A stretch of DNA of 32,000 nucleotides from Candidatus Methanoperedens sp. (GTDB lineage Archaea; Halobacteriota; Methanosarcinia; Methanosarcinales; Methanoperedenaceae). Positions 4,440 through 27,304 of the stretch are shown piece after piece. The stretch covers positions 150,001 to 182,000 of the forward strand of contig JBGQBI010000005.1 in assembly GCA_041494705.1 (NCBI GenBank), written 5' to 3'. The notes beneath the pieces are model-generated. The model worked only from the letters and a program-made list of their open reading frames with translations. It had not been told where the DNA came from and ran no database searches. The first letter of the stretch is position 1. The number at the start of each line of letters is the position of its first letter. A program made the position numbers and the translations under genes.

Positions 4440-6254
4440 ATGAGCAAAATCTTCGAAATAACCCATCGCGACACAGCAGCCAAGATAGGCAAACTGGTTC
4501 TGGAAAGAGAACTTTCAACTCCTGCAATTATCCGGATTAATAAAAAAGATTGCCCCATAATCGATTCCGGCTCTCTCTGGAAAAGGACTGCGCCTCCTGA
4601 ACCTGATGCCGAAAAAATATTCATCCTCCCCCATAAATCACTGCCCCTCTATACAAGAGAGGAAATCATAAAAGAGCTTCAGGATTCGCTTGCGCAGGCG
4701 CCGCCATTTGCTCATACGGGCACCGTCATCCATCCCTTCATCCGCGAATACCCGGCATCTGACCTCTACGTCCTCGGCGCCGCAAAGCAGCTTGAAAACA
4801 GGGCGCGCGAACTCGTGGAAGCCATAATCAGGCTCAAGGAAAACACCCGCGCCGATTCGCTTCTCTATGCGCCAGCGCTTGCCACGCCCGAAAACCTTGC
4901 CATGCTTGTGTACATGGGTGTAGATATCGTTGATGAAACTTTGCCACTAATTAAAGCATACCAGGATATTTATTTGACAAACTCTGGCGAACATCACCTT
5001 GACAGGCTGCATGAATTCCCCTGCGCCTGTTCCGTATGTCTTGCGAATAACCCTGCGGAACTTCTTAAAATGCCCAAAAAAGAGCGCGCTGAATTGCTGT
5101 CTTCACATAACTCATTAAAACTTGGCGAGGAACTACGCGCTGTCCGCGAGCACATAAGGTCAGGGCATCTTCGCGAATACGTAGAGCGCCAGTGCAGAGC
5201 GCGCCCGTGGCTTACTGCGGCGCTTCGCTTAATTGATGTGCAATACGAACTTCTTGAAAAAAGAACGCCGATATTCAGGGCGGGTACGCTATATGCCAAT
5301 ACATCAGAATCGTTAAACCGGGTGGAAATCAGAAGGTTTGCAGAGCGTGTAATAGAGCGCTACTCAGCGCCTGAGCTTGATACCCTCGTGCTTCTCCCGT
5401 GTTCAGCAAAAAAACCGTATTCGATATCCCTTTCCCACCAGAAATTTCTCAATGCCCTGGGAAAGTACCGAAAATTTGTCCATGAAGTGATAATCACCTC
5501 TCCGATGGGTGTTGTCCCGCGCGAGCTTGAATTAATGTACCCTGCTGCGCATTATGATACTCCGGTAACAGGACACTGGGACCTTGAGGAAAGAGCATGG
5601 GTAGGGGGCTGCCTGCGCTCGTATCTTGAGAAGAACAAATATAAAAATATTATCGCGCATGTGCACGGCGCATACAGGGAAATATGCGAATCAGTGGAAA
5701 GCGAGCTCGGGCTTGGGTTTATCTATACAGCCGATGAAGGTGTCACTTCAAACACATCCCTTGACAAACTGAGAAATACTGTTTCAGAGCTTGAACATAC
5801 AAAAAAACGGGGAAGCGAGAAAGCAAACCTTGACATTATGCGCGCAACAGTGGATTACCAGTTCGGGTGCGGCTCCGGGGATATGCTTGTCACGGATGGC
5901 GCAAATGTCCGGGCTCCGTATCCCAAGTTCCAGTTATTCGAAGGAAAACAGCAGCTTGCAACTTTAATCCCGCAGTACGGGACGGTTGCCCTGACCGTAG
6001 AAGGTGGAATGCGGCTTCGCGGCTATCCCTTCTATAAGGTGAAAATAGGCGATTTCACTCCGCACAGCAGTATCCTTGCGCCGGGTGTGCTTGATGCTGA
6101 CCCGCAGATTCGTCCCAATGATGAGGTGATTGTTGAAGGTGAAAAGTTTTTCGGCGTGGGGCGCGCACTCATGAGCGGTTGGGAGATGAAAGGGTGCGGG
6201 AAGGGTGTTGCTGTGGAGCTGCGGCATTCAACGAAGATTGACGCTAAACATTAG
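4440..6254 (+). CDS. arcS: archaeosine synthase ArcS (TGT-like N-domain, ArcS signature motif, C-terminal PUA)
   Basis: Contains LLPCSAKKPYSISLSH, which equals the published ArcS motif PC-X3-KPY-X2-S-X2-H. The C-terminus is PUA-like (IRPNDEVIVEGEKFFGVGRALMSG). I chose the ATG at 4440 (MSKIFEITHRD) over the track start at 4329, because the 4329 extension crosses the GC-rich hairpin block. Confidence 0.85.
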   Translation: MSKIFEITHRDTAAKIGKLVLERELSTPAIIRINKKDCPIIDSGSLWKRTAPPEPDAEKIFILPHKSLPLYTREEIIKELQDSLAQAPPFAHTGTVIHPFIREYPASDLYVLGAAKQLENRARELVEAIIRLKENTRADSLLYAPALATPENLAMLVYMGVDIVDETLPLIKAYQDIYLTNSGEHHLDRLHEFPCACSVCLANNPAELLKMPKKERAELLSSHNSLKLGEELRAVREHIRSGHLREYVERQCRARPWLTAALRLIDVQYELLEKRTPIFRAGTLYANTSESLNRVEIRRFAERVIERYSAPELDTLVLLPCSAKKPYSISLSHQKFLNALGKYRKFVHEVIITSPMGVVPRELELMYPAAHYDTPVTGHWDLEERAWVGGCLRSYLEKNKYKNIIAHVHGAYREICESVESELGLGFIYTADEGVTSNTSLDKLRNTVSELEHTKKRGSEKANLDIMRATVDYQFGCGSGDMLVTDGANVRAPYPKFQLFEGKQQLATLIPQYGTVALTVEGGMRLRGYPFYKVKIGDFTPHSSILAPGVLDADPQIRPNDEVIVEGEKFFGVGRALMSGWEMKGCGKGVAVELRHSTKIDAKH

Positions 6255-6547: not shown

Positions 6548-6757
6548 CTAATTCTTCTCAGCAAGGGCTGCAATTGCAAATTTTCGCATAACCCGCTCAA
6601 TCTTTATCGTTACCTGGTCTCCGACCTTCGTACCTGGCACGAAAATCACTAAACCCTGTATATGTGCTATACCATCTCCTTCCCTTGCAATGCCATCAAT
6701 AGTTACATCGTGGACATCACCTGTTGAGACAGGAGAATTACTATCTTGTTCTAACAA
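6548..6757 (-). CDS. TRAM domain protein
   Basis: 69 aa. VHDVTIDGIAREGDGIAHIQGLVIFVPGTKVGDQVTIKIERV is a typical stand-alone archaeal TRAM sequence. TTG start. It lies 18 nt upstream of the zinc-ribbon gene, so the two are a likely pair. Confidence 0.75.
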   Translation of the reverse strand: MLEQDSNSPVSTGDVHDVTIDGIAREGDGIAHIQGLVIFVPGTKVGDQVTIKIERVMRKFAIAALAEKN

Positions 6758-6887: not shown

Positions 6888-6896
6888 GTAAGCTGT
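6888..6896. repeat. target-site duplication, left copy (GTAAGCTGT)
   Basis: An identical 9-mer in direct orientation at 12111-12119. Each copy directly abuts a terminal inverted repeat. Confidence 0.8.
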
Positions 6897-6916
6897 GGCT
6901 TTGTTTAATAAGTGCC
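6897..6916 (+). repeat. left terminal inverted repeat (IR-L)
   Basis: See the mobile element entry. Read directly from the sequence. Confidence 0.85.
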
Positions 6917-6951
6917 TCTTGTTTAAAAAGTCGGAATTTTGTTTAAAAAGT
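6902..6951 (+). repeat. three direct copies of the 12-mer TGTTTAAwAAGT at the left end
   Basis: TGTTTAATAAGT at 6902-6913 (inside IR-L). TGTTTAAAAAGT at 6920-6931 and 6940-6951. All three are in + orientation, spaced 18 and 20 bp. Confidence 0.7.
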
Positions 6952-7027
6952 AAAAAGGTGAGTGGTTAGAATCTCTGTTAAGTGCTAAGTGGTAAATCCA
7001 ATAAATCAGGAGTTCAAAATTTTAAGG

Positions 7028-8104
7028 TTACTCAATGGAAATATTGCATTTTAAGAGTGTTTCAAGCTTTTCAGATAATTCTCGCTTTATTTGGTCTATT
7101 TTCTCATATTTCCGAGCTATTTCTTTCTGTTTTAGAACATCAAACTCTCCCTTTGGTGTAATGGGAATTTTAACGTTAATTTTGCCTACTTTTTCTTTCC
7201 CTGCGGTTTTACTCCATCTAAATCCTTGTTTTAAAAGAACATCTTGAATGGCATATCTCATATAAGATAAATCAATCTGGTCTTCATATTCGGGTTTTAA
7301 CGTCGTTGGTCTGTGATGGTCGTTAGTTGTAAATCTCGACTTATGCCAAAAAACATATCCTACAGAACCTTCCCTATTCCAAGCCAAACAATTCTCAAAA
7401 TATTTTACGTTTTTTAGATTGTCCTTAACATAACCTATTGGAATTTCCTCTTGTTTGCCACCATAAACGGGGACATCTCCTGAATGTGATTCGATAAAAC
7501 GTTTCGTTAATCCTTTAATTGAAGGCAAACAAAAAATCTCACCTATTGGGACTTCTTTGTTGTGCGTATCGCCAACATCAAAACCAACTCGTGCATTTTC
7601 AATTTCACCTTTCAACAATGTTACTTGCTCTTTAATTGAGCTGAACGCCCTATTTCGTTGGACTATTTGTTGTTGTGCTTCCCTATCAAAATCTCCATTT
7701 TTGTCTACTGGTAGTTCAATTGTTACGGTGCGCATATTTTTCAAGGAAGACCTAAGCGTCCTATCAAAGCCTAATAAGCCACTTTTTAATCTAAGTATGT
7801 ACAAAAGATACTCAGTTACTATTTTATCATTTAGAATCTTTATGACTCCGCAGTGGTCTGTTGTTGCGAATTTTTCTCCTTTTCGCATTATGTTGAACTC
7901 AAAATTCCCATCAATACCCCACATCAAATAATCATGCGAAAAATCAGTTATGTTTGATTTTTCTACATATCCGAACGGCTCAAAAACATTTGCGCTATAT
8001 GCTGGAATTTCAGCGATTGAATTAAACACTTCTTCTTTCAATATCCTTTTTCCTATTGAAAGTTCAAATAACTCTTTATCATTCAACGAGACTTCTTTTT
8101 TCAT
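7028..8104 (-). CDS. R-M specificity subunit (HsdS/BcgIB-like, two target-recognition domains)
   Basis: 358 aa with two half-repeats (...FATTDHCGVIKI... and ...FTTNDHHRPTTL...). The halves are separated and followed by helical coiled-coil spacers (QQQIVQRNRAFSSIKEQVTLLKGEIE; EIARKYEKIDQIKRELSEKLETLL). The ATGA start/stop overlap with the upstream methylase gene indicates translational coupling. Confidence 0.75.
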   Translation of the reverse strand: MKKEVSLNDKELFELSIGKRILKEEVFNSIAEIPAYSANVFEPFGYVEKSNITDFSHDYLMWGIDGNFEFNIMRKGEKFATTDHCGVIKILNDKIVTEYLLYILRLKSGLLGFDRTLRSSLKNMRTVTIELPVDKNGDFDREAQQQIVQRNRAFSSIKEQVTLLKGEIENARVGFDVGDTHNKEVPIGEIFCLPSIKGLTKRFIESHSGDVPVYGGKQEEIPIGYVKDNLKNVKYFENCLAWNREGSVGYVFWHKSRFTTNDHHRPTTLKPEYEDQIDLSYMRYAIQDVLLKQGFRWSKTAGKEKVGKINVKIPITPKGEFDVLKQKEIARKYEKIDQIKRELSEKLETLLKCNISIE

Positions 8105-10239
8105 AGCAACCCATCAAGTTCTTGATTTAAGGTACTGATTGTTTTAACAACATCCTCGAATTTTTCTTTAAACTCTTCAAGCGTCAATATGATTTCTTCT
8201 TCTTCAATTCCAAGTTTTATTTTCTCTTGTTTTGTCCACCATCTATCAATAGACCAATGTTCATCTGGATTAAATTTTTCAATAGGCTGTATCCTACATC
8301 TTGGGTCATCTATTGTAAAGTTATTTGGGCTTCCCTTATACTGGTTAAATAAATTTTTTGCTTTGTCCAAATCATTCTCTTCAATCTCAAATCTCTTTAT
8401 ATCCAGCGTTTCGCCAATGTTTGAAACCAAATAAGTAAATACTGGAAAATCTTGATTTTGATTTTCGTTCTCTTTTTTTGTTATACCTAAGATATAGGTC
8501 TTTTGTGGGGTGTTAAAGAAGGTCTTAACAGGCAAAGAGATAATGCAGTTAATAAAACATTTTTGTTTAATTTCTTTCCTTAATATATTATTGGCGGATA
8601 TATTGAATACGCCATCGGGTAGGATTACAAATGCTGACCCGCCTTTTTTAAGATTTGATATAATCCATTTCAAACAAAGACCTTGAACACCATGCCCGCT
8701 ATCTGCATAAAATTCGCTTAAACCCTCCTCTTCTATTTGTTTCCGTATCGTCGCAACGCCACTTGTAATATACGGAGGATTAGTCATGATTAAATCTGGT
8801 TTATCTTCTTCTTTTTCTAAAATAATTCTTAGTGAACCGAGATTAGAGTCTGATAGAAAATGGAATGTGTCATTTATAATTCTTTCAAATTCCTTGTTTA
8901 ACGTCGGATTCTTTTCAACTACATCTGAAAAATAAATGAGCATATTTGCCTTTGCCAAGATTATTGTTCTTCTTTGTTCATCATTATCTTCTCTTCCAGT
9001 ATCATATCCAAGCAACTTAACATTAGAATTTATCTTACCATTTTTGGGAATAAATCTGTTCTTTAAATTTGTGGATATTTGAAATGGCTCTAAAATGAAA
9101 CCACCGACACCGCAAAAAGGGTCACAGATAAAACTTACTTTATCAATGTCCGCCATTTCTACTATTGCTTTAACAACTTTTCTCGGTGTAAAGAACTGTC
9201 CCAATTTACTTTTATCTTTGCTTTGTTTTAGGAAGGTCTCAAATAACTTTGTTTTGAATTCCTTTTTTATATTTCTCAGGTCTCCAAATTTAGCATATTT
9301 TTCAATTGTATCCCTGAATAGGGTTGCTTGCGATAAAACTGGCGTTCCATCACGATTTACAAAAATAGTTCCGTTGATAATTCCAGTTCCGTCGTCTCCT
9401 GCGTTAAATAATTCTTTTATCTTTTTCCTGCCTTTTGTGGCGTAGTGTTCCAAAACCTCTTTGTTGGGATACCCTTCTTCATACATTTTAATTAAATGGT
9501 CAAAGCTATAATCCCTCTTCAGAACGCCCAAATCACTCAAAAACTTGAAGATAAATATTTCAACTACATTGTATAAACAAGCGGTAGGGTTGTCTTTTGT
9601 GCTGATATAAATGCTTTGCCAAACGCTTTTAGCAAGGGGCGTAGGGTCTGTTTTTTCAGTTGCTTTTAATATAGAATTAGAAGGGTTTGTCTCACTCAGA
9701 ATCCTTTCTATTAGCTGATATGTTTCTTTCGTTTCGTCGTCAAATTTATCAATATCTGTCTGATTTATTTCACTGATGTGAAACTTCTTTTGAAGTTTTT
9801 GTTTATCATCATTGAGAATAAATGAGTAACTTCTTTTTGTGTTGTTTGTTCTATCTGTGTATTCGTTCTTCTGTTCTAAATTATTTGGATTAATCCAATG
9901 TGTTACAATACCGTCTGTTATAATACCTATTTTTGCTTCTAACACCTGGCATAGGTCATTACACTGCTCCACAGCCTCTTTTTTTTGCTTATCTGTTTGA
10001 AACTCTTTCGGTTTTTTATATTCTAATAAAGCAATCACTTGTGGACTTGTTTTATTCCTTCTATCGACTAATAATCCGTCCGGTCTCCTGTCTTCATAAT
10101 CTCCATAACCTTTGTTTTGAATTATCTTTGCATGTTTGTATTGTTTTATTGTCGTTGAATGTAGCGGAAATAATTCGTATTCACCAATGGATATTCCTTT
10201 ATCAGTCAAGTTTCTTGATATTTGTTCTTCACTTGCCAT
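8101..10239 (-). CDS. fused PD-(D/E)xK nuclease / HsdM-like N6-adenine DNA methyltransferase (Type IIB BcgIA-like)
   Basis: 712 aa. The N-terminus has RPDGLLVD-x17-LLEYKKP, a PD...ExK pattern. The middle has an HsdM_N-like helical region. The MTase motifs are FFTPRKVV, motif I DPFCGVGGF and motif IV NPPY (LIMTNPPYITSG). Confidence 0.8.
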   Translation of the reverse strand: MASEEQISRNLTDKGISIGEYELFPLHSTTIKQYKHAKIIQNKGYGDYEDRRPDGLLVDRRNKTSPQVIALLEYKKPKEFQTDKQKKEAVEQCNDLCQVLEAKIGIITDGIVTHWINPNNLEQKNEYTDRTNNTKRSYSFILNDDKQKLQKKFHISEINQTDIDKFDDETKETYQLIERILSETNPSNSILKATEKTDPTPLAKSVWQSIYISTKDNPTACLYNVVEIFIFKFLSDLGVLKRDYSFDHLIKMYEEGYPNKEVLEHYATKGRKKIKELFNAGDDGTGIINGTIFVNRDGTPVLSQATLFRDTIEKYAKFGDLRNIKKEFKTKLFETFLKQSKDKSKLGQFFTPRKVVKAIVEMADIDKVSFICDPFCGVGGFILEPFQISTNLKNRFIPKNGKINSNVKLLGYDTGREDNDEQRRTIILAKANMLIYFSDVVEKNPTLNKEFERIINDTFHFLSDSNLGSLRIILEKEEDKPDLIMTNPPYITSGVATIRKQIEEEGLSEFYADSGHGVQGLCLKWIISNLKKGGSAFVILPDGVFNISANNILRKEIKQKCFINCIISLPVKTFFNTPQKTYILGITKKENENQNQDFPVFTYLVSNIGETLDIKRFEIEENDLDKAKNLFNQYKGSPNNFTIDDPRCRIQPIEKFNPDEHWSIDRWWTKQEKIKLGIEEEEIILTLEEFKEKFEDVVKTISTLNQELDGLL

Positions 10240-10242
10240 TTT

Positions 10243-10470
10243 TCATCTACCCCTATCCGCTTCCCAATATATCCGTGTTCCTCTTTTCCTTTTAATAACC
10301 CATCCCTTTGATTTAAACTCATCGAGATACTTTTCTGCCGTATTCCAAGAAACATTGGCTATATGGGATATTTGGGTTGTGTTGAGAGAATAATTGTGTT
10401 CAAGTAAAGCCTTTAAGATTCTTGATTCGGCAGGTTTCAACTGTGGTCTTGGTTTCGGCATTTTAATCAA
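10243..10470 (-). CDS. small winged-helix DNA-binding protein
   Basis: 75 aa. SRILKALLEHNYSLNTTQISHIANVSWNTAEKYLDEFKSKGWVIKRK is a wHTH pattern. Its stop lies 3 nt before the methylase ATG. Confidence 0.6.
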   Translation of the reverse strand: MIKMPKPRPQLKPAESRILKALLEHNYSLNTTQISHIANVSWNTAEKYLDEFKSKGWVIKRKRGTRIYWEADRGR

Positions 10471-10472
10471 TC

Positions 10473-10682
10473 TTATTCTTTTGTTAATTTCAAACTTTCA
10501 TTTTCAATCTTAATCTCTATCATATCCCCTGCCTTCCATTTGACTTTCTCAATAAATCCGGCAGGAATCCTTAGAGTATATTGCTTTGTGTGTTTTGCAT
10601 CGTAAATCAGCTTTACGGTTTTTTTAAGAGATGTCGGCTCTTTCAGTCCGATTTCTTCAACAACATCGTCTGGAATTGGCAT
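10473..10682 (-). CDS. SpoVT/AbrB-type (swapped-hairpin) DNA-binding protein
   Basis: 69 aa. YTLRIPAGFIEKVKWKAGDMIEIKIENESLKL resembles the AbrB/MazE-fold core. It is the first gene of the four-gene operon. Confidence 0.55.
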   Translation of the reverse strand: MPIPDDVVEEIGLKEPTSLKKTVKLIYDAKHTKQYTLRIPAGFIEKVKWKAGDMIEIKIENESLKLTKE

Positions 10683-10693
10683 ATTATAACTAA

Positions 10694-10736
10694 TAGTCTA
10701 TTTTCATATATAAATATATGTTTTTAGTCTATTTTC
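10694..10736. promoter_or_regulatory. divergent promoter with two perfect 12-bp direct repeats flanking a TATA-like box
   Basis: TAGTCTATTTTC at 10694-10705 and 10725-10736 brackets atatataaatatat (10706-10720). That box lies 24-38 bp upstream of the AbrB-like ATG, which suggests a leaderless or near-leaderless transcript. A partial third copy (GGTCTA) is at 10746-10751. TTTTAAATA at 10763-10771 is a plausible TATA box for the transposase. Confidence 0.5.
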
Positions 10737-10826
10737 TGTAAATATGGTCTAAAAACACATAGTTTTAAATACTATCGAGTGTAATTATGAATTATAAGAC
10801 TATAAACACATAATAAGGTGATTAAA

Positions 10827-12074
10827 ATGGATATGCGAAAGCTCAAAGGTGAACAAATAGCAAAAACGGGCAGGATTGTAAAGCTTGAAGATGGGTGGCA
10901 TGTGCCGTCACAGTCTGGAAAAGGGACATACATTGTATCGACAGCATCCTTGTTGTCAAAACCAAAATGCACCTGTCCTGACTATGAAACAAGGGGTTTA
11001 GTATGTAAACACATGTATGCAGTTGAAATTACCTTAAAAAAGGAATTTGAGGTTGATGAACATGGTAATACAACCATAACCGAGACTAAGAAAATCACCT
11101 ATTCCCAAAACTGGACTGCATACAATAAAGCCCAATGTAATGAAAAAGACATCTTCCAAAAACTTCTCTATGACTTATGCCAGCATATCCCACAACCTGA
11201 TTATGATTTTGGAAGACCGACATTACCTTTGAGTGACATGGTATTTTCATCTGCCCTGAAAGTCTATTCCACTTTCTCATTGAGGAGATTTGAAAGCGAT
11301 ATGAGACACGCAAATGGAAATGGGTATGTCAATAAAGCATGTTCTTATTCATCCGTGAGCAATTACATGAGAAAAACCGAATTAATCCCAATACTCCAAG
11401 ACCTTATCAAAATAAGCAGTTTGCCTCTTGCATCGGTTGAAACGGATTTTGCGGTTGATAGTTCGGGTTTTTCAACATCACGGTTTGCACGATATTTCAG
11501 TTTCAAGCACGGTAGGGATATGAAATACAGGACATGGATAAAGGCCCATATCGGTATCGGTGTTAAAACTAATATCGTGACAGGCGTTGAGATTACAGAA
11601 GAAAGTGAAAATGACAGCCCCCAGTTTAAGCCGTTGGTTGAAAAGACTGCCGAGAATTTCATAATCAATGAAGTATCTGCGGATAAAGCCTATTCAAGCA
11701 GGGATAACCTTGAAGTCGTGGAATCACTTGGCGGTACTGCGTTTATACCGTTTAAGAGCAATACAACAGGCAAACAGAGAGGTTCGTCAGTATGGGCTAA
11801 GATGTATCATTATTTCTTATACAATAAAGAGGAGTTTTTAGACCACTACCATAAGAGAAGTAATGTGGAAACAACATTCCACATGATAAAATCGAAGTTC
11901 AGGGATAACCTGAGAAGCAAGGATAAAGTAGCTCAGATTAATGAGTTGTTGTTAAAAATACTGTGCCATAATATCTGTGTGCTTATTCAGGAAACATTTG
12001 AGTTGGGGATTGAACCCCAATTCAATTTATCTATTCAACCACAGTCATGTTTAAAAAGTGCTGATTCTGTTTAA
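10827..12074 (+). CDS. transposase: N-terminal SWIM zinc finger plus IS4/IS5-type DDE domain
   Basis: SWIM pattern CTCPDYETRGLVCKH (CxC-x10-CxH). DDE region: FAVDSSGF, VSADKAYSS and YHKRSNVETTFHMIK (the Y-x2-R-x3-E-x6-K signature). I chose the ATG at 10827 because AGGTGAT (10816-10822) is a Shine-Dalgarno-like site 4 nt upstream. The track start is the GTG at 10818. Confidence 0.85.
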   Translation: MDMRKLKGEQIAKTGRIVKLEDGWHVPSQSGKGTYIVSTASLLSKPKCTCPDYETRGLVCKHMYAVEITLKKEFEVDEHGNTTITETKKITYSQNWTAYNKAQCNEKDIFQKLLYDLCQHIPQPDYDFGRPTLPLSDMVFSSALKVYSTFSLRRFESDMRHANGNGYVNKACSYSSVSNYMRKTELIPILQDLIKISSLPLASVETDFAVDSSGFSTSRFARYFSFKHGRDMKYRTWIKAHIGIGVKTNIVTGVEITEESENDSPQFKPLVEKTAENFIINEVSADKAYSSRDNLEVVESLGGTAFIPFKSNTTGKQRGSSVWAKMYHYFLYNKEEFLDHYHKRSNVETTFHMIKSKFRDNLRSKDKVAQINELLLKILCHNICVLIQETFELGIEPQFNLSIQPQSCLKSADSV

Positions 12075-12105
12075 AAAGTGAGATGGTTTTGGGACTTATT
12101 AAACA
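12048..12105 (+). repeat. right-end 12-mer array: two + copies plus one inverted terminal copy
   Basis: TGTTTAAAAAGT at 12048-12059 and 12068-12079, in + orientation, inside the last 9 codons of the transposase. ACTTATTAAACA at 12094-12105 is the inverted copy inside IR-R. Confidence 0.7.
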
Positions 12106-12110
12106 AAGCC
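12091..12110 (-). repeat. right terminal inverted repeat (IR-R)
   Basis: Its reverse complement matches IR-L at 19 of 20 positions, with the outer 17 perfect. Confidence 0.85.
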
Positions 12111-12119
12111 GTAAGCTGT
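12111..12119. repeat. target-site duplication, right copy (GTAAGCTGT)
   Basis: Identical to 6888-6896. It lies 10 nt from the kae1-bud32 stop codon. Confidence 0.8.
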
Positions 12120-12129
12120 CCTACCTTTG

Positions 12130-13752
12130 TCAAGCGTATCTTCCCCTGGATTCGATTTCCGCCACTCGCTCAAAGACTTTTCCTGCATCCTGGAAAGTCA
12201 TCGCGTATCCTTTCTTGAATGATTCTATGAGTTCTTCATGGTTCTCATGCGTGCTCTCAAACGTCTGGAAAAGCACATGTATATCCACGCCCCTTGATTC
12301 CAGCGTCTTATCAAGATATGCAAGACCAAAATCTATCAGGAATAGCTTTCCATCCTTATACAAAATGTTGGACGTGGTAAGGTCGCCATGAATAATCCCG
12401 CATGTATGAAGGCGCCCGATAAGCTTTCCTGTTTCTTCGGAAAGCGAGGGGTTCACTATATTTTTAAGCGCCGTTCCCTCGATATACTCCATCCGGATTT
12501 CAAAATCTGTAACGTCCCTGATTATCGGCGTGGGAACGCCGCATCTTCGCGCTTCGGAAATAAGCCTTGCCTCGGTTTTTGTCCTCTCCCTCCGGATACT
12601 CTCATCTATTTCTTTCAACCTGTAGCGCTTCTCTATCCTTGTCTTGATTATCGTATTTCCTTCAAGCGCTATCACCGCCTCGGCGCCGCTTGCGATTATC
12701 CCGGCGTGTTGGGGTATGCTTTGCATACCCCTCGACTTTGCTAAAGGTTTCAAACCTTTTTGATAAACCTTTCCCAAAGGTTTCCATGTCACAACCGCAT
12801 CGTCAGGTCTAAAGTTCGGATTAACCTTAGAATCCTCAATAGCTGTCCTGTATCCTGATTTATACATCAAGAGACCAAGATACGCTATCATGGCGCCGTT
12901 ATCCCCCATGAACCTTTTTTCCGGCACATAGAACTCGATACCCCGTTCCTCGCACATTATTTTAAGCATCTCGCGAAGACGCGAATTTGCGCCAACGCCG
13001 CCTGCAAGTAGAACCTCCCGCTTCCCGGTATGCGCCACCGCGCGTTCTGTCACTTCGACCAGCATCGCAAAAGCTGTTTCCTGGAATGAATGGCAGACAT
13101 CGGGCAATGAAGCGACTTTTACTGATTCCTGGGCTGCGGTAGTGAGACCTGAGAACGAAAAATCCATACCCTTTACGGTGTAGGGCAGCGGGATGTATTT
13201 TGTTGCTTTTTTGGCAAGCTCCTCGACTTTTGGTCCTCCAGGATGCGGCAATCCTACCGAGCGTGCGAATTTGTCAAGGGCATTCCCAATCCCGATATCA
13301 AGCGTCTCCCCGAATACCCTGTAATGACCTTTCCTGTACGCCAGCACCTGCGAATTTGCGCCGCTGACATAAAGAGTTACAGGGTCTAAAGCTTGCGTTT
13401 TCCACCTTCCCACCTCGATATGCGCGATGCAGTGATTGACTCCGATGAGAGGAACGCCAAGTGATAATGCAAGCGCCCTTGCAGCCGTAGCGACCGTGCG
13501 AAGACACGGCCCAAGCCCAGGTCCCTGTGAAAATGCCACCGCGCTTATCTCACCATTGCCTTTTTTCAGGGTTTCCCTTACTACTTCAGCGATGTGGTTT
13601 GCATGATGCTGCGCAGCTTCACGTGGATGGATGCCGCCTGTCTTTGGCATGTATGTGGCCGTGGTTTCCGCAATCACATCATCCTCATCAACAATCGCAG
13701 CGCTCAGATTCCATGCAGTTCCCTCAATTCCCAAGATAGAAATTTTTGACAT
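12130..13752 (-). CDS. kae1-bud32: fused Kae1 (tRNA t6A threonylcarbamoyltransferase) / Bud32 kinase
   Basis: 540 aa. The N-terminal half is ASKHA-fold Kae1 (LGIEGTAWNLSAAIV, GVNHCIAHIE, GGVGANSRLREM). The C-terminal half is Bud32-like (GAEAVI..., IIHGDLTTSNIL, LIDFGLA). Confidence 0.95.
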   Translation of the reverse strand: MSKISILGIEGTAWNLSAAIVDEDDVIAETTATYMPKTGGIHPREAAQHHANHIAEVVRETLKKGNGEISAVAFSQGPGLGPCLRTVATAARALALSLGVPLIGVNHCIAHIEVGRWKTQALDPVTLYVSGANSQVLAYRKGHYRVFGETLDIGIGNALDKFARSVGLPHPGGPKVEELAKKATKYIPLPYTVKGMDFSFSGLTTAAQESVKVASLPDVCHSFQETAFAMLVEVTERAVAHTGKREVLLAGGVGANSRLREMLKIMCEERGIEFYVPEKRFMGDNGAMIAYLGLLMYKSGYRTAIEDSKVNPNFRPDDAVVTWKPLGKVYQKGLKPLAKSRGMQSIPQHAGIIASGAEAVIALEGNTIIKTRIEKRYRLKEIDESIRRERTKTEARLISEARRCGVPTPIIRDVTDFEIRMEYIEGTALKNIVNPSLSEETGKLIGRLHTCGIIHGDLTTSNILYKDGKLFLIDFGLAYLDKTLESRGVDIHVLFQTFESTHENHEELIESFKKGYAMTFQDAGKVFERVAEIESRGRYA

Positions 13753-26254: not shown

Positions 26255-27304
26255 CTAAATCGTTTTGATTTCAAATCCTTCAAACATCTTCCTCATTAAA
26301 GTGTCCTGGCACGTACCAAAACCCGGTGTGGCAATCTTAAGCCCGTCCATGTCATCTATTGACGTGATATCCGAATCCGCTCTCACAACAAGCGATGTTC
26401 CGCCGGTATTAACTCCATTGACAATGCGTATCCTGCCGTTATCGTTTATCCTGAACCTTAAAAGAACTGTGCTGCCGAGAGTCGCCGCATCAACCTCGCG
26501 ATGCTTGAACGCATCTGTTATTGCCCTGCCGCTGCGGTAAGCTGTGAATTGGACATTTTTCCCAGGAATAAGACCCGCCTTTTCGAAATAACCTTCCTTC
26601 TGGGCTATGTACATCGACAGATAATGTATATTTCCTTCAATATATCCGAATTTGATACTTTCATTAACATTGACAACCGGCGGCGTCCAATTCGGATTTT
26701 CGTCCAATCTTTTTTTGACCTCGTTGTAATATTTATCAATAAAGAGGCTTGAAAGAAAGTCGTCAGTGCCATTATACCCAAGCGCTGTTATCGTATTTGT
26801 AAAAGTCCCGGCTTTAGCCTGTATATCAATGGCTTTTTTTACCTGGCTTACATCCGGGTATTCGATGTAAACCGTGTTATCAATAGCCGAAGAGACCTCA
26901 TTTTTATCAAGCCCTGAAAATTCCTGCCCGTATTTTAAGACCTTTTCACGGTTTGAGGGATTGTTGATAAACCTTGCGCCCTTCACCTCAGCCCATACGA
27001 GAGCTCTTATCATGTCTTCATCCTTCAGGTCTTCGGAGATTGCCAGGACGCACGACGGATGGTTCTCCCAGATGTCACTGGAATTAACAAGATACCTGCC
27101 GTAACCCTCATCTACCGCTTTTGCAGGATATGGTTCCCAGGAAATAAAACCTGCAATCGTCCCGTTTGCAAGATTTGCCGACATCTCATCGGCCGTCATG
27201 GAAACCACGGTTATTGACTTTTGGGTATGGGATTTTTCGTAAACCACAAAGCCTGCCGAGAATACTATCAATCCGATTATGATAATGTAAATATAACTTT
27301 TCAT
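26255..27304 (-). CDS. membrane-anchored NMT1/SsuA-like substrate-binding protein, apparently circularly permuted
   Basis: I chose the start at 27304 (MKSYIYIIIIGLIVF, a signal anchor), which forms an ATGA overlap with the kinase stop. The first half has motifs of the C-terminal lobe (MTADEMSANLANGTIAGFISWEPYPAKA). The second half has motifs of the N-terminal lobe (IKFGYIEG...YRSGRAITDAFKHREVDAA...MDGLKIATPGFG). Confidence 0.6.
   Translation of the reverse strand: MKSYIYIIIIGLIVFSAGFVVYEKSHTQKSITVVSMTADEMSANLANGTIAGFISWEPYPAKAVDEGYGRYLVNSSDIWENHPSCVLAISEDLKDEDMIRALVWAEVKGARFINNPSNREKVLKYGQEFSGLDKNEVSSAIDNTVYIEYPDVSQVKKAIDIQAKAGTFTNTITALGYNGTDDFLSSLFIDKYYNEVKKRLDENPNWTPPVVNVNESIKFGYIEGNIHYLSMYIAQKEGYFEKAGLIPGKNVQFTAYRSGRAITDAFKHREVDAATLGSTVLLRFRINDNGRIRIVNGVNTGGTSLVVRADSDITSIDDMDGLKIATPGFGTCQDTLMRKMFEGFEIKTI

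What the first reader, a model, noticed from the sequence alone, without database searches (positions are those of the whole stretch)
6888..12119. Complete transposon with TIRs and a 9-bp target-site duplication carrying a whole R-M-type operon as cargo
Seen directly: GGCTTTGTTTAATAAGT (6897-6913) and its exact reverse complement (12094-12110) bound a 5,214-bp segment. The identical 9-mer GTAAGCTGT abuts both ends on the outside in direct orientation (6888-6896, 12111-12119). That is the signature of a recent single transposition event. Inside are one DDE transposase gene and a tightly coupled four-gene operon (AbrB-like, wHTH, nuclease-methylase fusion, specificity subunit). The insertion sits between housekeeping genes: 10 nt after the kae1-bud32 stop and about 130 bp upstream of the TRAM gene start. 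The sampled interior is AT-rich, with 21/60 and 16/60 G+C in the 60-nt lines starting at 8101 and 9001. Flanking lines at 5161 and 13021 give 39/60 and 35/60. A single-transposase, IS-like element that mobilises a full restriction-modification module with its own regulators would be a self-contained mobile defence/addiction unit. I am not aware of this being described for archaea.
Basis: seen in the sequence. Interest (0 to 1): 0.85.

Follow-up and report, generated by a model that had tools for sequence, protein, structure and literature searches.

The report
IS903-like transposon carrying restriction-modification cargo
A 5.2-kb jumping gene related to the bacterial insertion sequence IS903 recently landed between two housekeeping genes of a methane-oxidising archaeon, carrying a complete DNA-restriction defence system, and it belongs to a large, apparently undescribed family of such defence-carrying transposons.

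Summary
Window 6897-12110 is bounded by exact 17-bp inverted repeats and a perfect 9-bp direct repeat. A sister Candidatus Methanoperedens genome has the same flanks joined across a single GTAAGCTGT, which is an empty site.

The element is an IS5-family, IS903-group transposon. Its IR matches the IS903 IR at 15 of 17 positions, it makes a 9-bp TSD, and it has the DDE and YREK motifs. The transposase also has an extra N-terminal SWIM zinc finger.

Each end carries two further 12-13-bp sites that co-vary with the IR core across the family.

The cargo is a BcgI-like restriction-modification pair: a PD-ExK/N6A-methylase fusion plus a two-TRD specificity subunit.

The AbrB-like and wHTH genes belong to the transposon backbone, not to the R-M module. 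Close relatives (transposase 91-93% identical) keep them and swap the cargo.

Of 80 metagenomic relatives, 50 had an IR pair and 40 of those a perfect 9-bp TSD. The 40 non-redundant elements analysed (38 of them, plus the window and L008) are 2.7-10.5 kb, and none of the 80 is a bare IS. Their cargo is dominated by R-M and other defence-type genes.

R-M units with TIRs and TSDs are known in bacteria, so this is a new variant of a known kind. I found no description of this family.

The parts
6888..6896 (.). Left copy of the 9-bp target-site duplication GTAAGCTGT
   Evidence: A single copy is present at the empty site in L083.
6897..6916 (+). Left terminal inverted repeat (17/17 exact, 19/20 extended). 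It is IS903-like: GGC tip plus a TGTTTAATAAGT core.
   Evidence: It matches the IS903 IR at 15/17 positions.
6919..6951 (+). Two subterminal copies of the motif (C/T)TTGTTTAAAAAGT. The 12-mers lie at 6920-6931 and 6940-6951 with a 20-bp period, in the same orientation as the IR core. They are putative accessory transposase-binding sites.
   Evidence: They are conserved and co-vary with the IR core in 40 elements.
7028..8104 (-). Specificity (S) subunit, 358 aa, with two target-recognition domains
   Evidence: Pfam Methylase_S, 2 stretches. PADLOC Specificity_I/II and the C-terminal region of type IIG enzymes.
8101..10239 (-). 712-aa fusion protein: an N-terminal putative PD-(D/E)XK nuclease (E22, P53-D54, E73-x-K75), a helical linker and a gamma-class N6-adenine methyltransferase (NPPY). 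It has no fused TRD.
10243..10461 (-). Winged-helix (TrmB/HTH_45-like) DNA-binding protein, 72 aa. It is a backbone gene.
   Evidence: It is 93-96% identical in L005 and L008, which carry different cargo.
10473..10682 (-). AbrB/MazE-fold (SpoVT-AbrB) DNA-binding protein, 69 aa. It is the first gene of the leftward operon and a backbone gene.
   Evidence: It is 91-93% identical in L005 and L008. A homologue sits in the same position in 15 of 40 family elements.
10683..10826 (.). Divergent control region. It holds TAGTCTATTTTC x2, (G/A)(T/A)CTA(A/T)AAACACATA x2 and an imperfect palindrome at 10706-10770. The transposase Shine-Dalgarno sequence GGTGA lies at 10815-10820.
   Evidence: It is 93% conserved with L005 and L008. 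Relatives carry analogous element-specific iterated motifs.
10827..12074 (+). Transposase, 415 aa: an N-terminal SWIM zinc finger plus an IS5/IS903-type DDE domain (D211, D286, E348; Y341-R344-E348-K355)
12048..12079 (+). Two subterminal copies of TGTTTAAAAAGT (12048-12059 and 12068-12079). They have the same absolute orientation as at the left end, so they are inverted relative to the right IR. They overlap the 3' end of the transposase gene.
12091..12110 (-). Right terminal inverted repeat
12111..12119 (.). Right copy of the 9-bp target-site duplication
6548..6757 (-). Flanking host gene encoding a TRAM-domain protein. It is not part of the element.
   Evidence: It is adjacent to Kae1-Bud32 at the empty site in L083.
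12130..13752 (-). Flanking host gene encoding the Kae1-Bud32 fusion. It is not part of the element.
   Evidence: It is 96% identical to the L083 orthologue.

Best explanation
Window 6897-12110 is an autonomous unit transposon, a 'transporter IS' of the IS5 family, IS903 group. It inserted once into the Kae1-Bud32/TRAM intergenic spacer of a Candidatus Methanoperedens chromosome and duplicated 9 bp.

Shown here: the ends, the TSD, the empty site, the IS903-type DDE transposase, the modular backbone and cargo slot, and membership of a large family of cargo-carrying relatives.

Inferred mechanism:
- The SWIM-plus-DDE transposase binds the IR core and the two reiterated 12-13-bp subterminal sites at each end. 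Their arrangement differs between the ends, so left and right are distinguishable. It then carries out IS903-type staggered 9-bp target cleavage and insertion.
- The backbone AbrB-like and wHTH proteins bind the iterated motifs in the 144-bp divergent control region. They set the expression of both the transposase and the leftward cargo operon.
- The cargo is a BcgI-like (type IIB/IIG-with-separate-S) restriction-modification enzyme. It methylates host DNA and cuts unmodified invaders. This benefits the host and penalises loss of the element.
- Cargo is exchanged en bloc between related backbones in the slot between the left-end sites and the regulator genes.
- Copies on virus or plasmid-like contigs provide the route between cells.
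For: Ends and TSD.

Empty site: L083 (Ca. Methanoperedens sp. MFD03797_ilm_asm_bin16; Kae1-Bud32 96% identical) has one GTAAGCTGT between the same flanks (357/409 and 370/401 nt identical), with TRAM immediately after it.

IS903 relationship:
- IS903 in phage HK022 has the IR GGCTTTGTTGAATAAATC and a 9-bp TSD, and the window IR matches it at 15/17 positions.
- The transposase aligns with the IS903 transposase through DSSG, ADKAY and Y-2-R-3-E-6-K.
- Pfam gives DDE_Tnp_1 at 2.7e-24 and SWIM at 1.7e-6.

Backbone versus cargo:
- L005-L007 (transposase 93% identical) and L008 (91%) keep AbrB, wHTH, the control region and the left end at 91-96% identity.
- They carry a PLD-nuclease plus double N6_N4 methylase, or a TRD-fused RM enzyme, instead.

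Family:
- Among 80 metagenomic relatives, 50 have an IR pair around the transposase gene, and 40 of those have a perfect 9-bp TSD.
- Forty non-redundant elements were analysed: 38 of these, plus the window and L008. They measure 2,724-10,456 bp (median 4,425), and none of the 80 loci is a bare IS.
- Of 102 cargo proteins, 21 match DNA-methylase families. Others match Methylase_S, HSDR_N_2, MvaI/BcnI, BglII, GmrSD, EVE, AbiEii-type ATPase, RT and more.

End sites: they are present in all 40 elements, and the site core co-varies with the IR core.

Regulator: an AbrB-like gene lies 88-147 bp divergently upstream of the transposase gene in the 14 elements measured (15 of 40 carry one; 7 more have a Zn-ribbon gene there), each with element-specific iterated motifs.

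Nuclease:
- D54, E73 and K75 are invariant in 42 homologues.
- Pfam HSDR_N_2 gives a sub-threshold hit on residues 52-123, and the hit is significant in the relatives L148, L152, L178 and L166.
- The AF2 model (pLDDT 84) places D54 at the start and E73/K75 at the end of adjacent strands.
- The top Foldseek hits are BpuSI, an HsdR fragment and DrdV.
Against: - No activity has been demonstrated. The element is single-copy in this genome: all 7 contigs that encode the identical transposase show the same locus.
- The Foldseek matches for the nuclease domain are not significant (best E = 0.075), and the Pfam nuclease hit is below threshold. Restriction activity therefore rests on motif conservation and on relatives.
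- L008 has both IRs but no TSD.
- Which protein binds the subterminal sites, and what the AbrB-like and wHTH proteins regulate, are inferences from position, conservation and co-variation only.
- The transposase scores below NCBIfam's IS5 cut-off (122.5 against 140 bits).
- ISfinder could not be queried.
Confidence: 0.85

Rival explanations
1. The cargo is a methylation-only system (M+S) rather than a restriction-modification system. It might act as an epigenetic or anti-restriction 'self-protection' module that lets the transposon or its viral vectors escape host restriction.
For: All significant database hits are to methyltransferases: HsdM in the PDB, MTase_I in PADLOC and N6_Mtase in Pfam. 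Sources name the protein 'type I restriction enzyme M protein'. The nuclease-fold search gave no significant match. ParB-methylase and other solitary methylases occur in related elements.
Against: A 300-residue N-terminal extension is conserved in more than 100 homologues. In it, E22, P53-D54 and E73-x-K75 are invariant or nearly invariant, which is the canonical PD-(D/E)XK signature. Relatives in the same BLAST cluster have significant HSDR_N_2 nuclease domains. The top-ranked structural neighbours are all restriction nucleases. The 710/900/1090-aa length classes with 0, 1 or 2 fused TRDs mirror the known type IIG/IIB families.
Confidence: 0.15
2. The R-M operon was already in the chromosome and an ordinary IS inserted beside it. 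On this reading the left IR is a solo or surrogate end, or the structure is a composite or one-ended capture rather than a dedicated cargo transposon.
For: The transposase gene sits at one extremity, 36 bp from the right tip. There is only one copy in the genome.
Against: The empty site lacks the whole 5.2 kb and has a single 9-mer. No IR-like sequence lies between the regulators and the transposase gene, even with up to 3 mismatches. The left end has the family-specific IR plus 6 nt plus two-site architecture. Forty relatives show the same layout, most with their own TSDs. There is only one transposase gene and no second IS copy.
Confidence: 0.03
3. The AbrB-like and wHTH pair is an addiction (toxin-antitoxin-like) module or the controller of the R-M cargo, analogous to C proteins, rather than a regulator belonging to the transposon backbone.
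For: The AbrB/MazE fold is typical of antitoxins (Pfam MazE_antitoxin). The two genes head the R-M operon with 3-11 nt gaps, which is the position C proteins usually hold.
Against: Neither protein has a toxin domain. Both stay 91-96% identical while the cargo is replaced by unrelated systems. AbrB-like genes hold the same position in elements whose cargo is not R-M, such as L119, L127, L130 and L191. The shared divergent control region also drives the transposase.
Confidence: 0.15
4. The element is an immobile relic: it arrived once by transposition and can no longer move.
For: It is single-copy. The same insertion is seen in every assembly that carries this transposase.
Against: The IRs are identical and the TSD is perfect. 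The ORF is intact, with all DDE/YREK residues. The four cargo and regulator ORFs are intact too. Near-identical backbones sit at other loci and on other replicons.
Confidence: 0.2

Closest known systems
IS903 (IS5 family, IS903 group)
   Same: The terminal IRs match at 15/17 positions (GGCTTTGTT-AATAA-T). Both make a 9-bp TSD. The transposase shares the DDE_Tnp_1 core with the DSxG, ADxxY and Y-2-R-3-E-6-K motifs.
   Different: IS903 is 1,057 bp with one gene. This element is 5,214 bp with four passenger or backbone genes. Its transposase is only about 22% identical to that of IS903 and has an extra ~90-aa N-terminal SWIM zinc finger. Each end carries two extra subterminal sites, arranged differently at the two ends. 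It also has a divergent regulator gene.
Transporter IS (tIS) / unit transposons with passenger genes (ISfinder concept; Siguier et al. 2009 as cited in PMC2853133)
   Same: A single IS-type transposase and a single pair of IRs bound passenger genes that are not needed for transposition.
   Different: In this clade cargo carriage appears to be the rule rather than the exception: none of the 80 relatives is bare. The cargo is defence-type, and there is a defined cargo slot and a dedicated regulator.
Transposon-like R-M units in bacteria (Furuta, Abe & Kobayashi 2010, PMC2853133), especially the Neisseria gonorrhoeae unit
   Same: R-M genes bounded by TIRs (26 bp) and a short TSD (8 bp), with an empty site in a relative. 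The N. gonorrhoeae unit holds a type IIG RM homologue, a type I-like S homologue and a gene with a transposase motif.
   Different: The hosts are bacteria and the TSD is 8 bp. No family context, end architecture or regulators were described, and the RM gene there is truncated. That survey found no archaeal case.
BcgI-type (type IIB) restriction-modification enzymes
   Same: A two-gene system: a nuclease-methylase fusion subunit (PD-ExK plus gamma-class N6A NPPY) and a separate ~340-360-aa specificity subunit with two TRDs. PADLOC Specificity_II hits the S subunit. The BcgI organisation is as described in PMC2853133.
   Different: Cleavage on both sides of the site is untested, and the nuclease fold was only weakly supported.
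Tn7-like transposons with defence cargo
   Same: Transposons whose variable cargo is dominated by defence systems. They have multiple transposase-binding sites at structurally different left and right ends, and some members insert site-specifically and in tandem (compare the hotspot).
   Different: Tn7 uses a heteromeric TnsA/B/C(D/E) machinery and a 5-bp TSD. This element has one IS5-type transposase and a 9-bp TSD, with no TnsC-like ATPase and no target selector.
C-protein-controlled type II R-M systems
   Same: A small DNA-binding protein is encoded at the head of the R-M operon, with repeated operator-like motifs upstream.
   Different: C proteins are Xre-type HTH proteins that belong to the R-M module. 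Here the proteins are AbrB-fold and winged-helix and belong to the transposon backbone.

Membership tests
IS5 family, IS903 group | DDE_Tnp_1 transposase with a D, D, E triad and the Y-(2)-R-(3)-E-(6)-K signature | tested here: met
   Pfam PF01609, 2.7e-24. D211 (DSSG), D286 (ADKAY) and Y341/R344/E348/K355 align with the IS903 transposase.
IS5 family, IS903 group | ~18-bp terminal IRs of the GGCTTTGTTGAATAAATC type | tested here: met
   15/17 identity to the IS903 IRs read from phage HK022.
IS5 family, IS903 group | 9-bp target-site duplication | tested here: met
   GTAAGCTGT x2, with a single copy at the empty site. 40 of 50 relatives have a perfect 9-bp TSD. IS903 in HK022 has the 9-bp TSD tcattccaa.
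IS5 family, IS903 group | Score above the curated family threshold for an IS5 transposase model | tested here: not met
   The best NCBIfam match is NF033579 transpos_IS5_2 at 122.5 bits, against a cut-off of 140. Identity to IS903-group transposases on plasmids and phages is 22-28%.
IS5 family, IS903 group | Simple IS: about 1 kb, a transposase gene only, and no accessory sites beyond the IR | tested here: not met
   The element is 5,214 bp with five genes. It has two subterminal sites per end and an N-terminal SWIM extension.
Transporter IS / unit transposon | One transposase gene and one pair of IRs enclosing passenger genes, moved as a unit with a TSD | tested here: met
Composite transposon | Two IS copies flanking the cargo | tested here: not met
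   There is one transposase gene. The IR occurs only at the two tips.
Type IIB (BcgI-like) R-M | A single polypeptide with an N-terminal PD-(D/E)XK nuclease and an N6-adenine methyltransferase | tested here: inconclusive
   The methyltransferase is clear (NPPY). For the nuclease: the E22/PD54/E73xK75 motif is invariant or nearly invariant; Pfam HSDR_N_2 gives E = 0.031, below threshold; the best Foldseek hit is BpuSI at E = 0.075, not significant.
Type IIB (BcgI-like) R-M | A separate specificity subunit with two TRDs | tested here: met
   358 aa, with two Methylase_S stretches. PADLOC Specificity_I/II. It overlaps the RM gene by 4 nt.
Type IIB (BcgI-like) R-M | Cleavage on both sides of a bipartite recognition site | not testable with these tools
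   This needs an enzyme assay.
Type I R-M | An HsdR subunit with an SF2 translocase | tested here: not met
   No helicase or translocase gene lies in or next to the element.
Tn7-like transposons | TnsA/TnsB/TnsC machinery and a 5-bp TSD | tested here: not met
   There is a single IS5-type transposase and a 9-bp TSD.
C-protein-controlled R-M | An Xre-type HTH controller that belongs to the R-M module, with a C-box operator | tested here: not met
   The regulators are AbrB-fold and winged-helix. They segregate with the transposase, not with the cargo.

The most novel reading that the evidence does not exclude
The window element may be one member of a large, so far undescribed clade of IS903-related 'defence shuttle' transposons. 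The clade is found in archaea (Methanoperedens, DPANN lineages), in some bacteria and in their viruses. Its proposed features are:
- Cargo carriage is obligatory.
- There is a defined cargo slot into which R-M, type IV, Abi/TA, protease and RT modules are swapped.
- Each end carries three co-evolving transposase sites in a left/right-asymmetric arrangement.
- Each element has its own small AbrB-fold or Zn-ribbon regulator with co-evolving operators.
- Some members insert repeatedly at one chromosomal 9-mer and stack in tandem, building a defence island by transposition alone.
Probability: 0.45. Interest if true: 0.75.

Novelty: new variant of a known kind. Interest (0 to 1): 0.62.

Why it matters
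Restriction-modification systems are regarded as semi-selfish mobile units, but how they actually move is rarely visible.

This window gives a clean case in an archaeon, with ends, TSD and empty site all in hand. It leads to a whole family in which a simple IS903-type transposase has become a dedicated carrier of interchangeable defence modules.

If the family is confirmed, it offers three things:
- A route by which defence genes spread and defence islands form in archaea and their viruses. Cargo-carrying DNA transposons were said not to have been detected in archaea (PMC6563490).
- A natural co-variation dataset linking a SWIM-plus-DDE transposase to its binding sites.
- A compact, single-protein, cargo-tolerant transposon from methane-oxidising archaea, for which few genetic tools exist.

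Tried and rejected
- **Exact-protein look-ups for an empty site.** I searched with the TRAM and Kae1-Bud32 proteins. They returned only the occupied locus. The empty site came from the genome-contig scan instead.
- **Look-up of the 418-aa GTG-start transposase ORF.** It found nothing. The recorded gene starts at the ATG at 10827.
- **Scan of viral contigs with the bare 17-mer IR.** Most of the 21 hits were chance matches without the subterminal motif. Only L014, L027 and L030 looked related, and L013 possibly (it lacks the subterminal motif).
- **Plasmid (PLSDB) and phage (INPHARED) collections.** They hold no close relative. The nearest are IS903-group transposases at 22-28% identity.
- **Foldseek on the N-terminal domain model.** No significant match.
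- **Literature searches.** Searches found no description of the family. ISfinder cannot be queried here.
- **Alternative structures rejected.** A composite transposon, a resident R-M beside a simple IS, a longer pre-existing repeat as the source of the 9-mer, and Tn7, casposon or integrase-type elements. The reasons are given under the rivals and the membership test.
- **Hotspot wHTH gene.** I checked whether the 86-aa wHTH gene next to the peat hotspot is related to the element's wHTH. It is not significantly related (19% identity, E = 0.008 pairwise).


Full report
**1. Observation**

The 17-mer GGCTTTGTTTAATAAGT lies at 6897-6913 on the + strand and at 12094-12110 on the - strand. The match extends to 19/20. 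With up to three mismatches it occurs nowhere else in the 32-kb window, where 0.16 matches are expected by chance.

GTAAGCTGT directly abuts both ends on the outside, at 6888-6896 and 12111-12119. G+C is 0.31-0.39 inside the element and 0.43-0.53 in the flanks.

- transposase, 10827-12074 (+), with SWIM and DDE_Tnp_1 domains
- AbrB/MazE-fold protein, 10473-10682 (-)
- winged-helix protein, 10243-10461 (-)
- 712-aa N6_Mtase protein, 8101-10239 (-)
- 358-aa Methylase_S protein, 7028-8104 (-)

The flanking genes are TRAM (6548-6757, -) and Kae1-Bud32 (12130-13752, -). They lie 130 nt and 10 nt from the direct repeats.

**2. Proof of insertion**

A scan of one genome per species with Kae1-Bud32 placed the window in Candidatus Methanoperedens. 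It also gave a sister genome, L083 (JBAVMS010000050.1; Kae1-Bud32 96% identical).

In L083 the two flanks of the window are contiguous across a single GTAAGCTGT. The left 400 nt are 357/409 identical and the right 400 nt are 370/401 identical. TRAM follows immediately.

The 9-mer is therefore a target-site duplication and not part of an older repeat. The whole 5,214 bp arrived in one event after these lineages split.

All seven contigs on record that encode the identical transposase show this same occupied locus. The element is therefore single-copy and fixed in the sampled population.

**3. What kind of transposon**

The nearest annotated relatives in plasmid and phage collections are IS903-group IS5-family transposases, at 22-28% identity.

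I read IS903 itself from phage HK022. Its IRs are GGCTTTGTTGAATAAATC and its TSD is 9 bp. The window IR matches it at 15 of 17 positions.

The transposase aligns with the IS903 transposase through the catalytic motifs:
- D211 in DSSG
- D286 in ADKAY
- Y341-x2-R344-x3-E348-x6-K355

It also has about 90 extra N-terminal residues that contain a SWIM zinc finger. It scores below NCBIfam's IS5 threshold, at 122.5 against 140 bits.

The element is therefore IS903-like in chemistry and ends. It is not a simple IS.

**4. End architecture**

Beyond the IR, each end carries two copies of (C/T)TGTTTAAAAAGT at a 20-bp period. This motif resembles the IR core TGTTTAATAAGT.

- At the left end the IR core and both sites point the same way.
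- At the right end the two sites are inverted relative to the IR.

The two ends are therefore structurally different.

I compared 40 delimited family members. The same layout recurs in all of them, and the site core co-varies with the IR core within each element. Examples are TTGCA, CCCAA, GTGTA and GTAGA in place of TTTAA.

This co-variation is strong comparative evidence that the sites are bound by an element-encoded protein. The transposase N-terminus is the most likely candidate, but that is an inference.

From established work on IS903, positions 6-16 of the IR form the transposase-binding part. That fits the reiteration of exactly this part of the IR.

**5. Backbone versus cargo**

Two close relatives were found by exact-protein look-up.

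L005-L007 come from a Methanoperedens MAG and have a transposase 93% identical to the window's. Their cargo is a PLD-family nuclease plus a 958-aa double N6_N4 methylase.

L008 has a transposase 91% identical. It lies next to Cdc6- and YopX-like genes, which suggests an extrachromosomal element or a virus. Its cargo is an 890-aa RM enzyme with a fused TRD.

BLASTN comparison gives these breakpoints:

| Comparison | Window region | Identity |
|---|---|---|
| Window vs L005 | 6897-6951 (left end) | 95% |
| Window vs L005 | 6952-10251 (cargo) | none |
| Window vs L005 | 10252-12057 (wHTH 3' end, AbrB, control region, transposase) | 91.6% |
| Window vs L008 | left end | 96% |
| Window vs L008 | 8297-12040 | 78% |

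The L008 RM gene shares the N-terminal ~650 codons with the window gene and then diverges into its fused TRD.

The wHTH proteins are 93-96% identical and the AbrB-like proteins 91-93% identical across the three elements. The 144-bp control region is 93% conserved.

So the two small DNA-binding proteins belong to the transposon. The segment between the left-end sites and the wHTH stop codon is an exchangeable cargo slot.

Conversely, L167 and L174 carry an RM gene 72-73% identical in nucleotide sequence to the window's, on much more divergent backbones.

**6. The family**

*Size and TSDs.* A metagenome scan with the transposase returned 80 loci at 54-63% identity.
- In 50 loci an IR pair flanks the transposase gene.
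- 40 of those have a perfect 9-bp TSD, and 3 more have one mismatch.
- After removing identical copies, 38 of these were analysed together with the window and L008, giving 40 elements.
- These 40 measure 2,724-10,456 bp, with a median of 4,425.
- No locus, including the short contigs, is compatible with a bare ~1.4-kb IS.

*Cargo census.* I scanned 102 cargo proteins of at least 110 aa against Pfam. The matches by family were:

| Pfam family | Proteins |
|---|---|
| N6_Mtase | 10 |
| N6_N4_Mtase | 9 |
| Eco57I | 7 |
| EVE | 6 |
| Methylase_S | 5 |
| Proteasome-like | 5 |
| HSDR_N_2 | 4 |
| MmeI_Mtase | 4 |
| EcoRI methylase | 1 |
| C5 methylase | 1 |
| MvaI/BcnI | 1 |
| BglII | 1 |
| GmrSD_N | 1 |
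| AAA_21 (AbiEii) | 1 |
| AAA_15 | 1 |
| RVT_1 | 1 |
| DUF4411 | 1 |
| ParB_N | 1 |
| DUF488 | 1 |

Individual scans added SocA/Panacea, ClpP/SDH protease and IrrE-HTH.

*A complete relative in a viral collection.* The IMG/VR contig L030 (the same contig as L193) carries a 3,925-bp member with the TSD TACAGAAAG. Its cargo is a C5 methylase plus an HNH nuclease plus a Zn-ribbon protein.

*Presence in viruses.* L014, and possibly L013, show element ends inside contigs that encode a terminase and a portal protein.

*Regulator position.*
- 15 of the 40 elements have an AbrB-like gene placed divergently upstream of the transposase gene. The spacer is 88-147 bp in the 14 measured.
- 7 more have a Zn-ribbon gene in the same place.
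- Each intergenic region carries its own iterated short motifs.

*Extent.* The N-terminal 200 residues of the transposase match 1,144 clusters (50% identity representatives) at E <= 1e-10. Source names for full-length relatives include Woesearchaeota, Nanoarchaeota, Aenigmarchaeota, Halobacteriota and one Fusobacteriaceae bacterium.

**7. The cargo in the window**

The C-terminal two-thirds of the 712-aa protein is an HsdM-like gamma-class N6-adenine methyltransferase:
- PDB 2okc, 2.4e-16
- PADLOC MTase_I, 2.3e-35
- NPPY motif

The N-terminal 300 residues have no significant family hit. The evidence that they form a nuclease is indirect:
- Residues 52-123 give a sub-threshold match to HSDR_N_2, the PD-(D/E)XK nuclease domain of type I R and type IIG enzymes. 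That domain is significant in the related cargo proteins of L148, L152, L178 and L166.
- In an alignment with 41 homologues, D54, E73 and K75 are invariant, and E22 and P53 are nearly invariant.
- An AlphaFold2 model (mean pLDDT 84) puts D54 at the start and E73/K75 at the end of adjacent beta-strands.
- Foldseek against the PDB gives no significant match. The top-ranked hits are nevertheless the type IIG enzyme BpuSI (E = 0.075), an HsdR fragment and DrdV.

Homologues fall into ~710-, ~900- and ~1,090-aa classes, with 0, 1 or 2 fused TRDs. The window has the 710-aa form plus a separate two-TRD S subunit that overlaps it by 4 nt. This is the BcgI-type (type IIB) organisation.

I rate an active restriction function at about 0.65-0.7. 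A methylation-only system is the main alternative.

**8. Mechanism proposed**

Shown:
- one-step insertion with a 9-bp duplication
- IS903-type catalytic core and ends
- conserved multi-site asymmetric ends
- a conserved divergent regulator and control region
- en-bloc cargo exchange
- presence on chromosomes, on a plasmid or virus-like contig, and on viral contigs

Inferred:
- The transposase recognises three sites per end through its N-terminal SWIM region.
- The AbrB-like and wHTH proteins bind the control-region repeats and tune both the transposase and the cargo operon. This would be useful when an RM enzyme enters an unmethylated genome.
- The RM enzyme gives defence and post-segregational stabilisation.
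- Cargo swaps arise by recombination between co-resident backbones.

**9. Comparison with what is known**

R-M gene complexes bounded by TIRs and a short TSD, with empty sites, were reported in bacteria. One case in N. gonorrhoeae combines a type IIG homologue, an S homologue and a transposase-motif gene. No archaeal case survived that screen (PMC2853133).

Krupovic et al. 2019 stated that cargo-carrying DNA transposons had not been detected in archaea (PMC6563490).

A 2026 archaeal IS survey and a 2026 Methanoperedens extrachromosomal-element paper do not mention such elements.

Defence cargo on Tn7-like transposons is known, but I cite that from memory and did not check it here.

The concept is therefore established. 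The IS903-derived family, its architecture and its presence in archaea appear to be new, so I file it as a new variant of a known kind.

**10. Caveats**

- There is no functional data.
- The family census rests on the 80 best-scoring metagenomic loci and on my own IR/TSD delimitation.
- L008 lacks a TSD.
- The nuclease assignment is not statistically secured.

Noticed in passing
L129, L130, L138, L140, L143, L152, L153, L179 (for example L130 100-6010; L143 5500-11200); variants in L123, L148, L160; a second site in L144, L145: Family members with different cargo and different IR specificities all sit at one chromosomal position in peat and wetland metagenomes. The TSD is CCAAATCGA or CCAAATCAA, 57 nt upstream of a conserved 86-aa wHTH gene and near Amt and PII genes. 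To their left lies the right end of yet another element, so the elements stack in tandem. This looks like site-preferring insertion that regenerates its own target and builds a defence island.
   Followed up: partly
L130 113-207; L143 11088-11182; also spacings of 95 bp between IR hits in L128, L131, L152, L170: 95-bp MITE-like mini-elements consisting of IR, one or two subterminal sites and an inverted IR. They are flanked by the same 9-mer as the full elements at the hotspot.
   Followed up: partly
All 40 elements; window 6897-6951 and 12048-12110: The subterminal 12-13-mers co-vary with the IR core from element to element. Their orientation is direct to the IR at the left end and inverted to the IR at the right end. 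This asymmetry is conserved across the family and is unlike IS903.
   Followed up: yes
L008 5290-5298 versus 10531-10539; L008 9978-10409: The L008 element has both IRs but different flanking 9-mers (cgttttacc / aaacaaatc), so it has no TSD. It also has an extra 143-aa ORF of unknown function between the transposase gene and the right end. Possible causes are recombination between two copies, an adjacent deletion or an assembly chimera.
   Followed up: no
L005 11246-11935: In the PLD-nuclease/methylase element, a hydrophobic ORF of at least 229 aa follows the transposase gene. A remnant of the subterminal motif (ctgtttaaaaaaa) lies at the transposase stop codon. The right IR lies beyond the contig end.
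   Followed up: no
L119 2767-4018; L126 4072-5389; L179 2519-3725; also L123 9552-10301 and L145 3875-4693: A recurrent two-gene cargo module: a SocA/Panacea-domain protein next to a proteasome/HslV-like protein. It may be a toxin-antitoxin or defence pair that I could not assign to a known system.
   Followed up: partly
L014 1-5700; L013 1-4500; L027 2557-4564; L030 128-4052: Element ends or whole elements lie on IMG/VR contigs. L014 and L013 encode a terminase large subunit and L014 also a portal protein. L027 has a C5 methylase and an endonuclease-like gene next to an IR. Viruses may act as vectors for these transposons.
   Followed up: partly
Homologues P0121-P0240 of window 8101-10239: The RM protein family occurs in three length classes (~710, ~900 and ~1,090 aa), matching 0, 1 or 2 fused TRDs. 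It is found in both bacteria (Planctomycetota, Saccharimonadales) and archaea (Thorarchaeota).
   Followed up: partly
L131, L142, L160, L179: about 55-75 nt inside the left end: A conserved sequence, GCAA(A/C)GGTTAGCA(T/C)GGTT, follows the left-end sites in several elements whose cargo is otherwise different. Its function is unknown.
   Followed up: no
window 26537-26545: A third copy of GTAAGCTGT, with no IR nearby. It is consistent with chance.
   Followed up: yes
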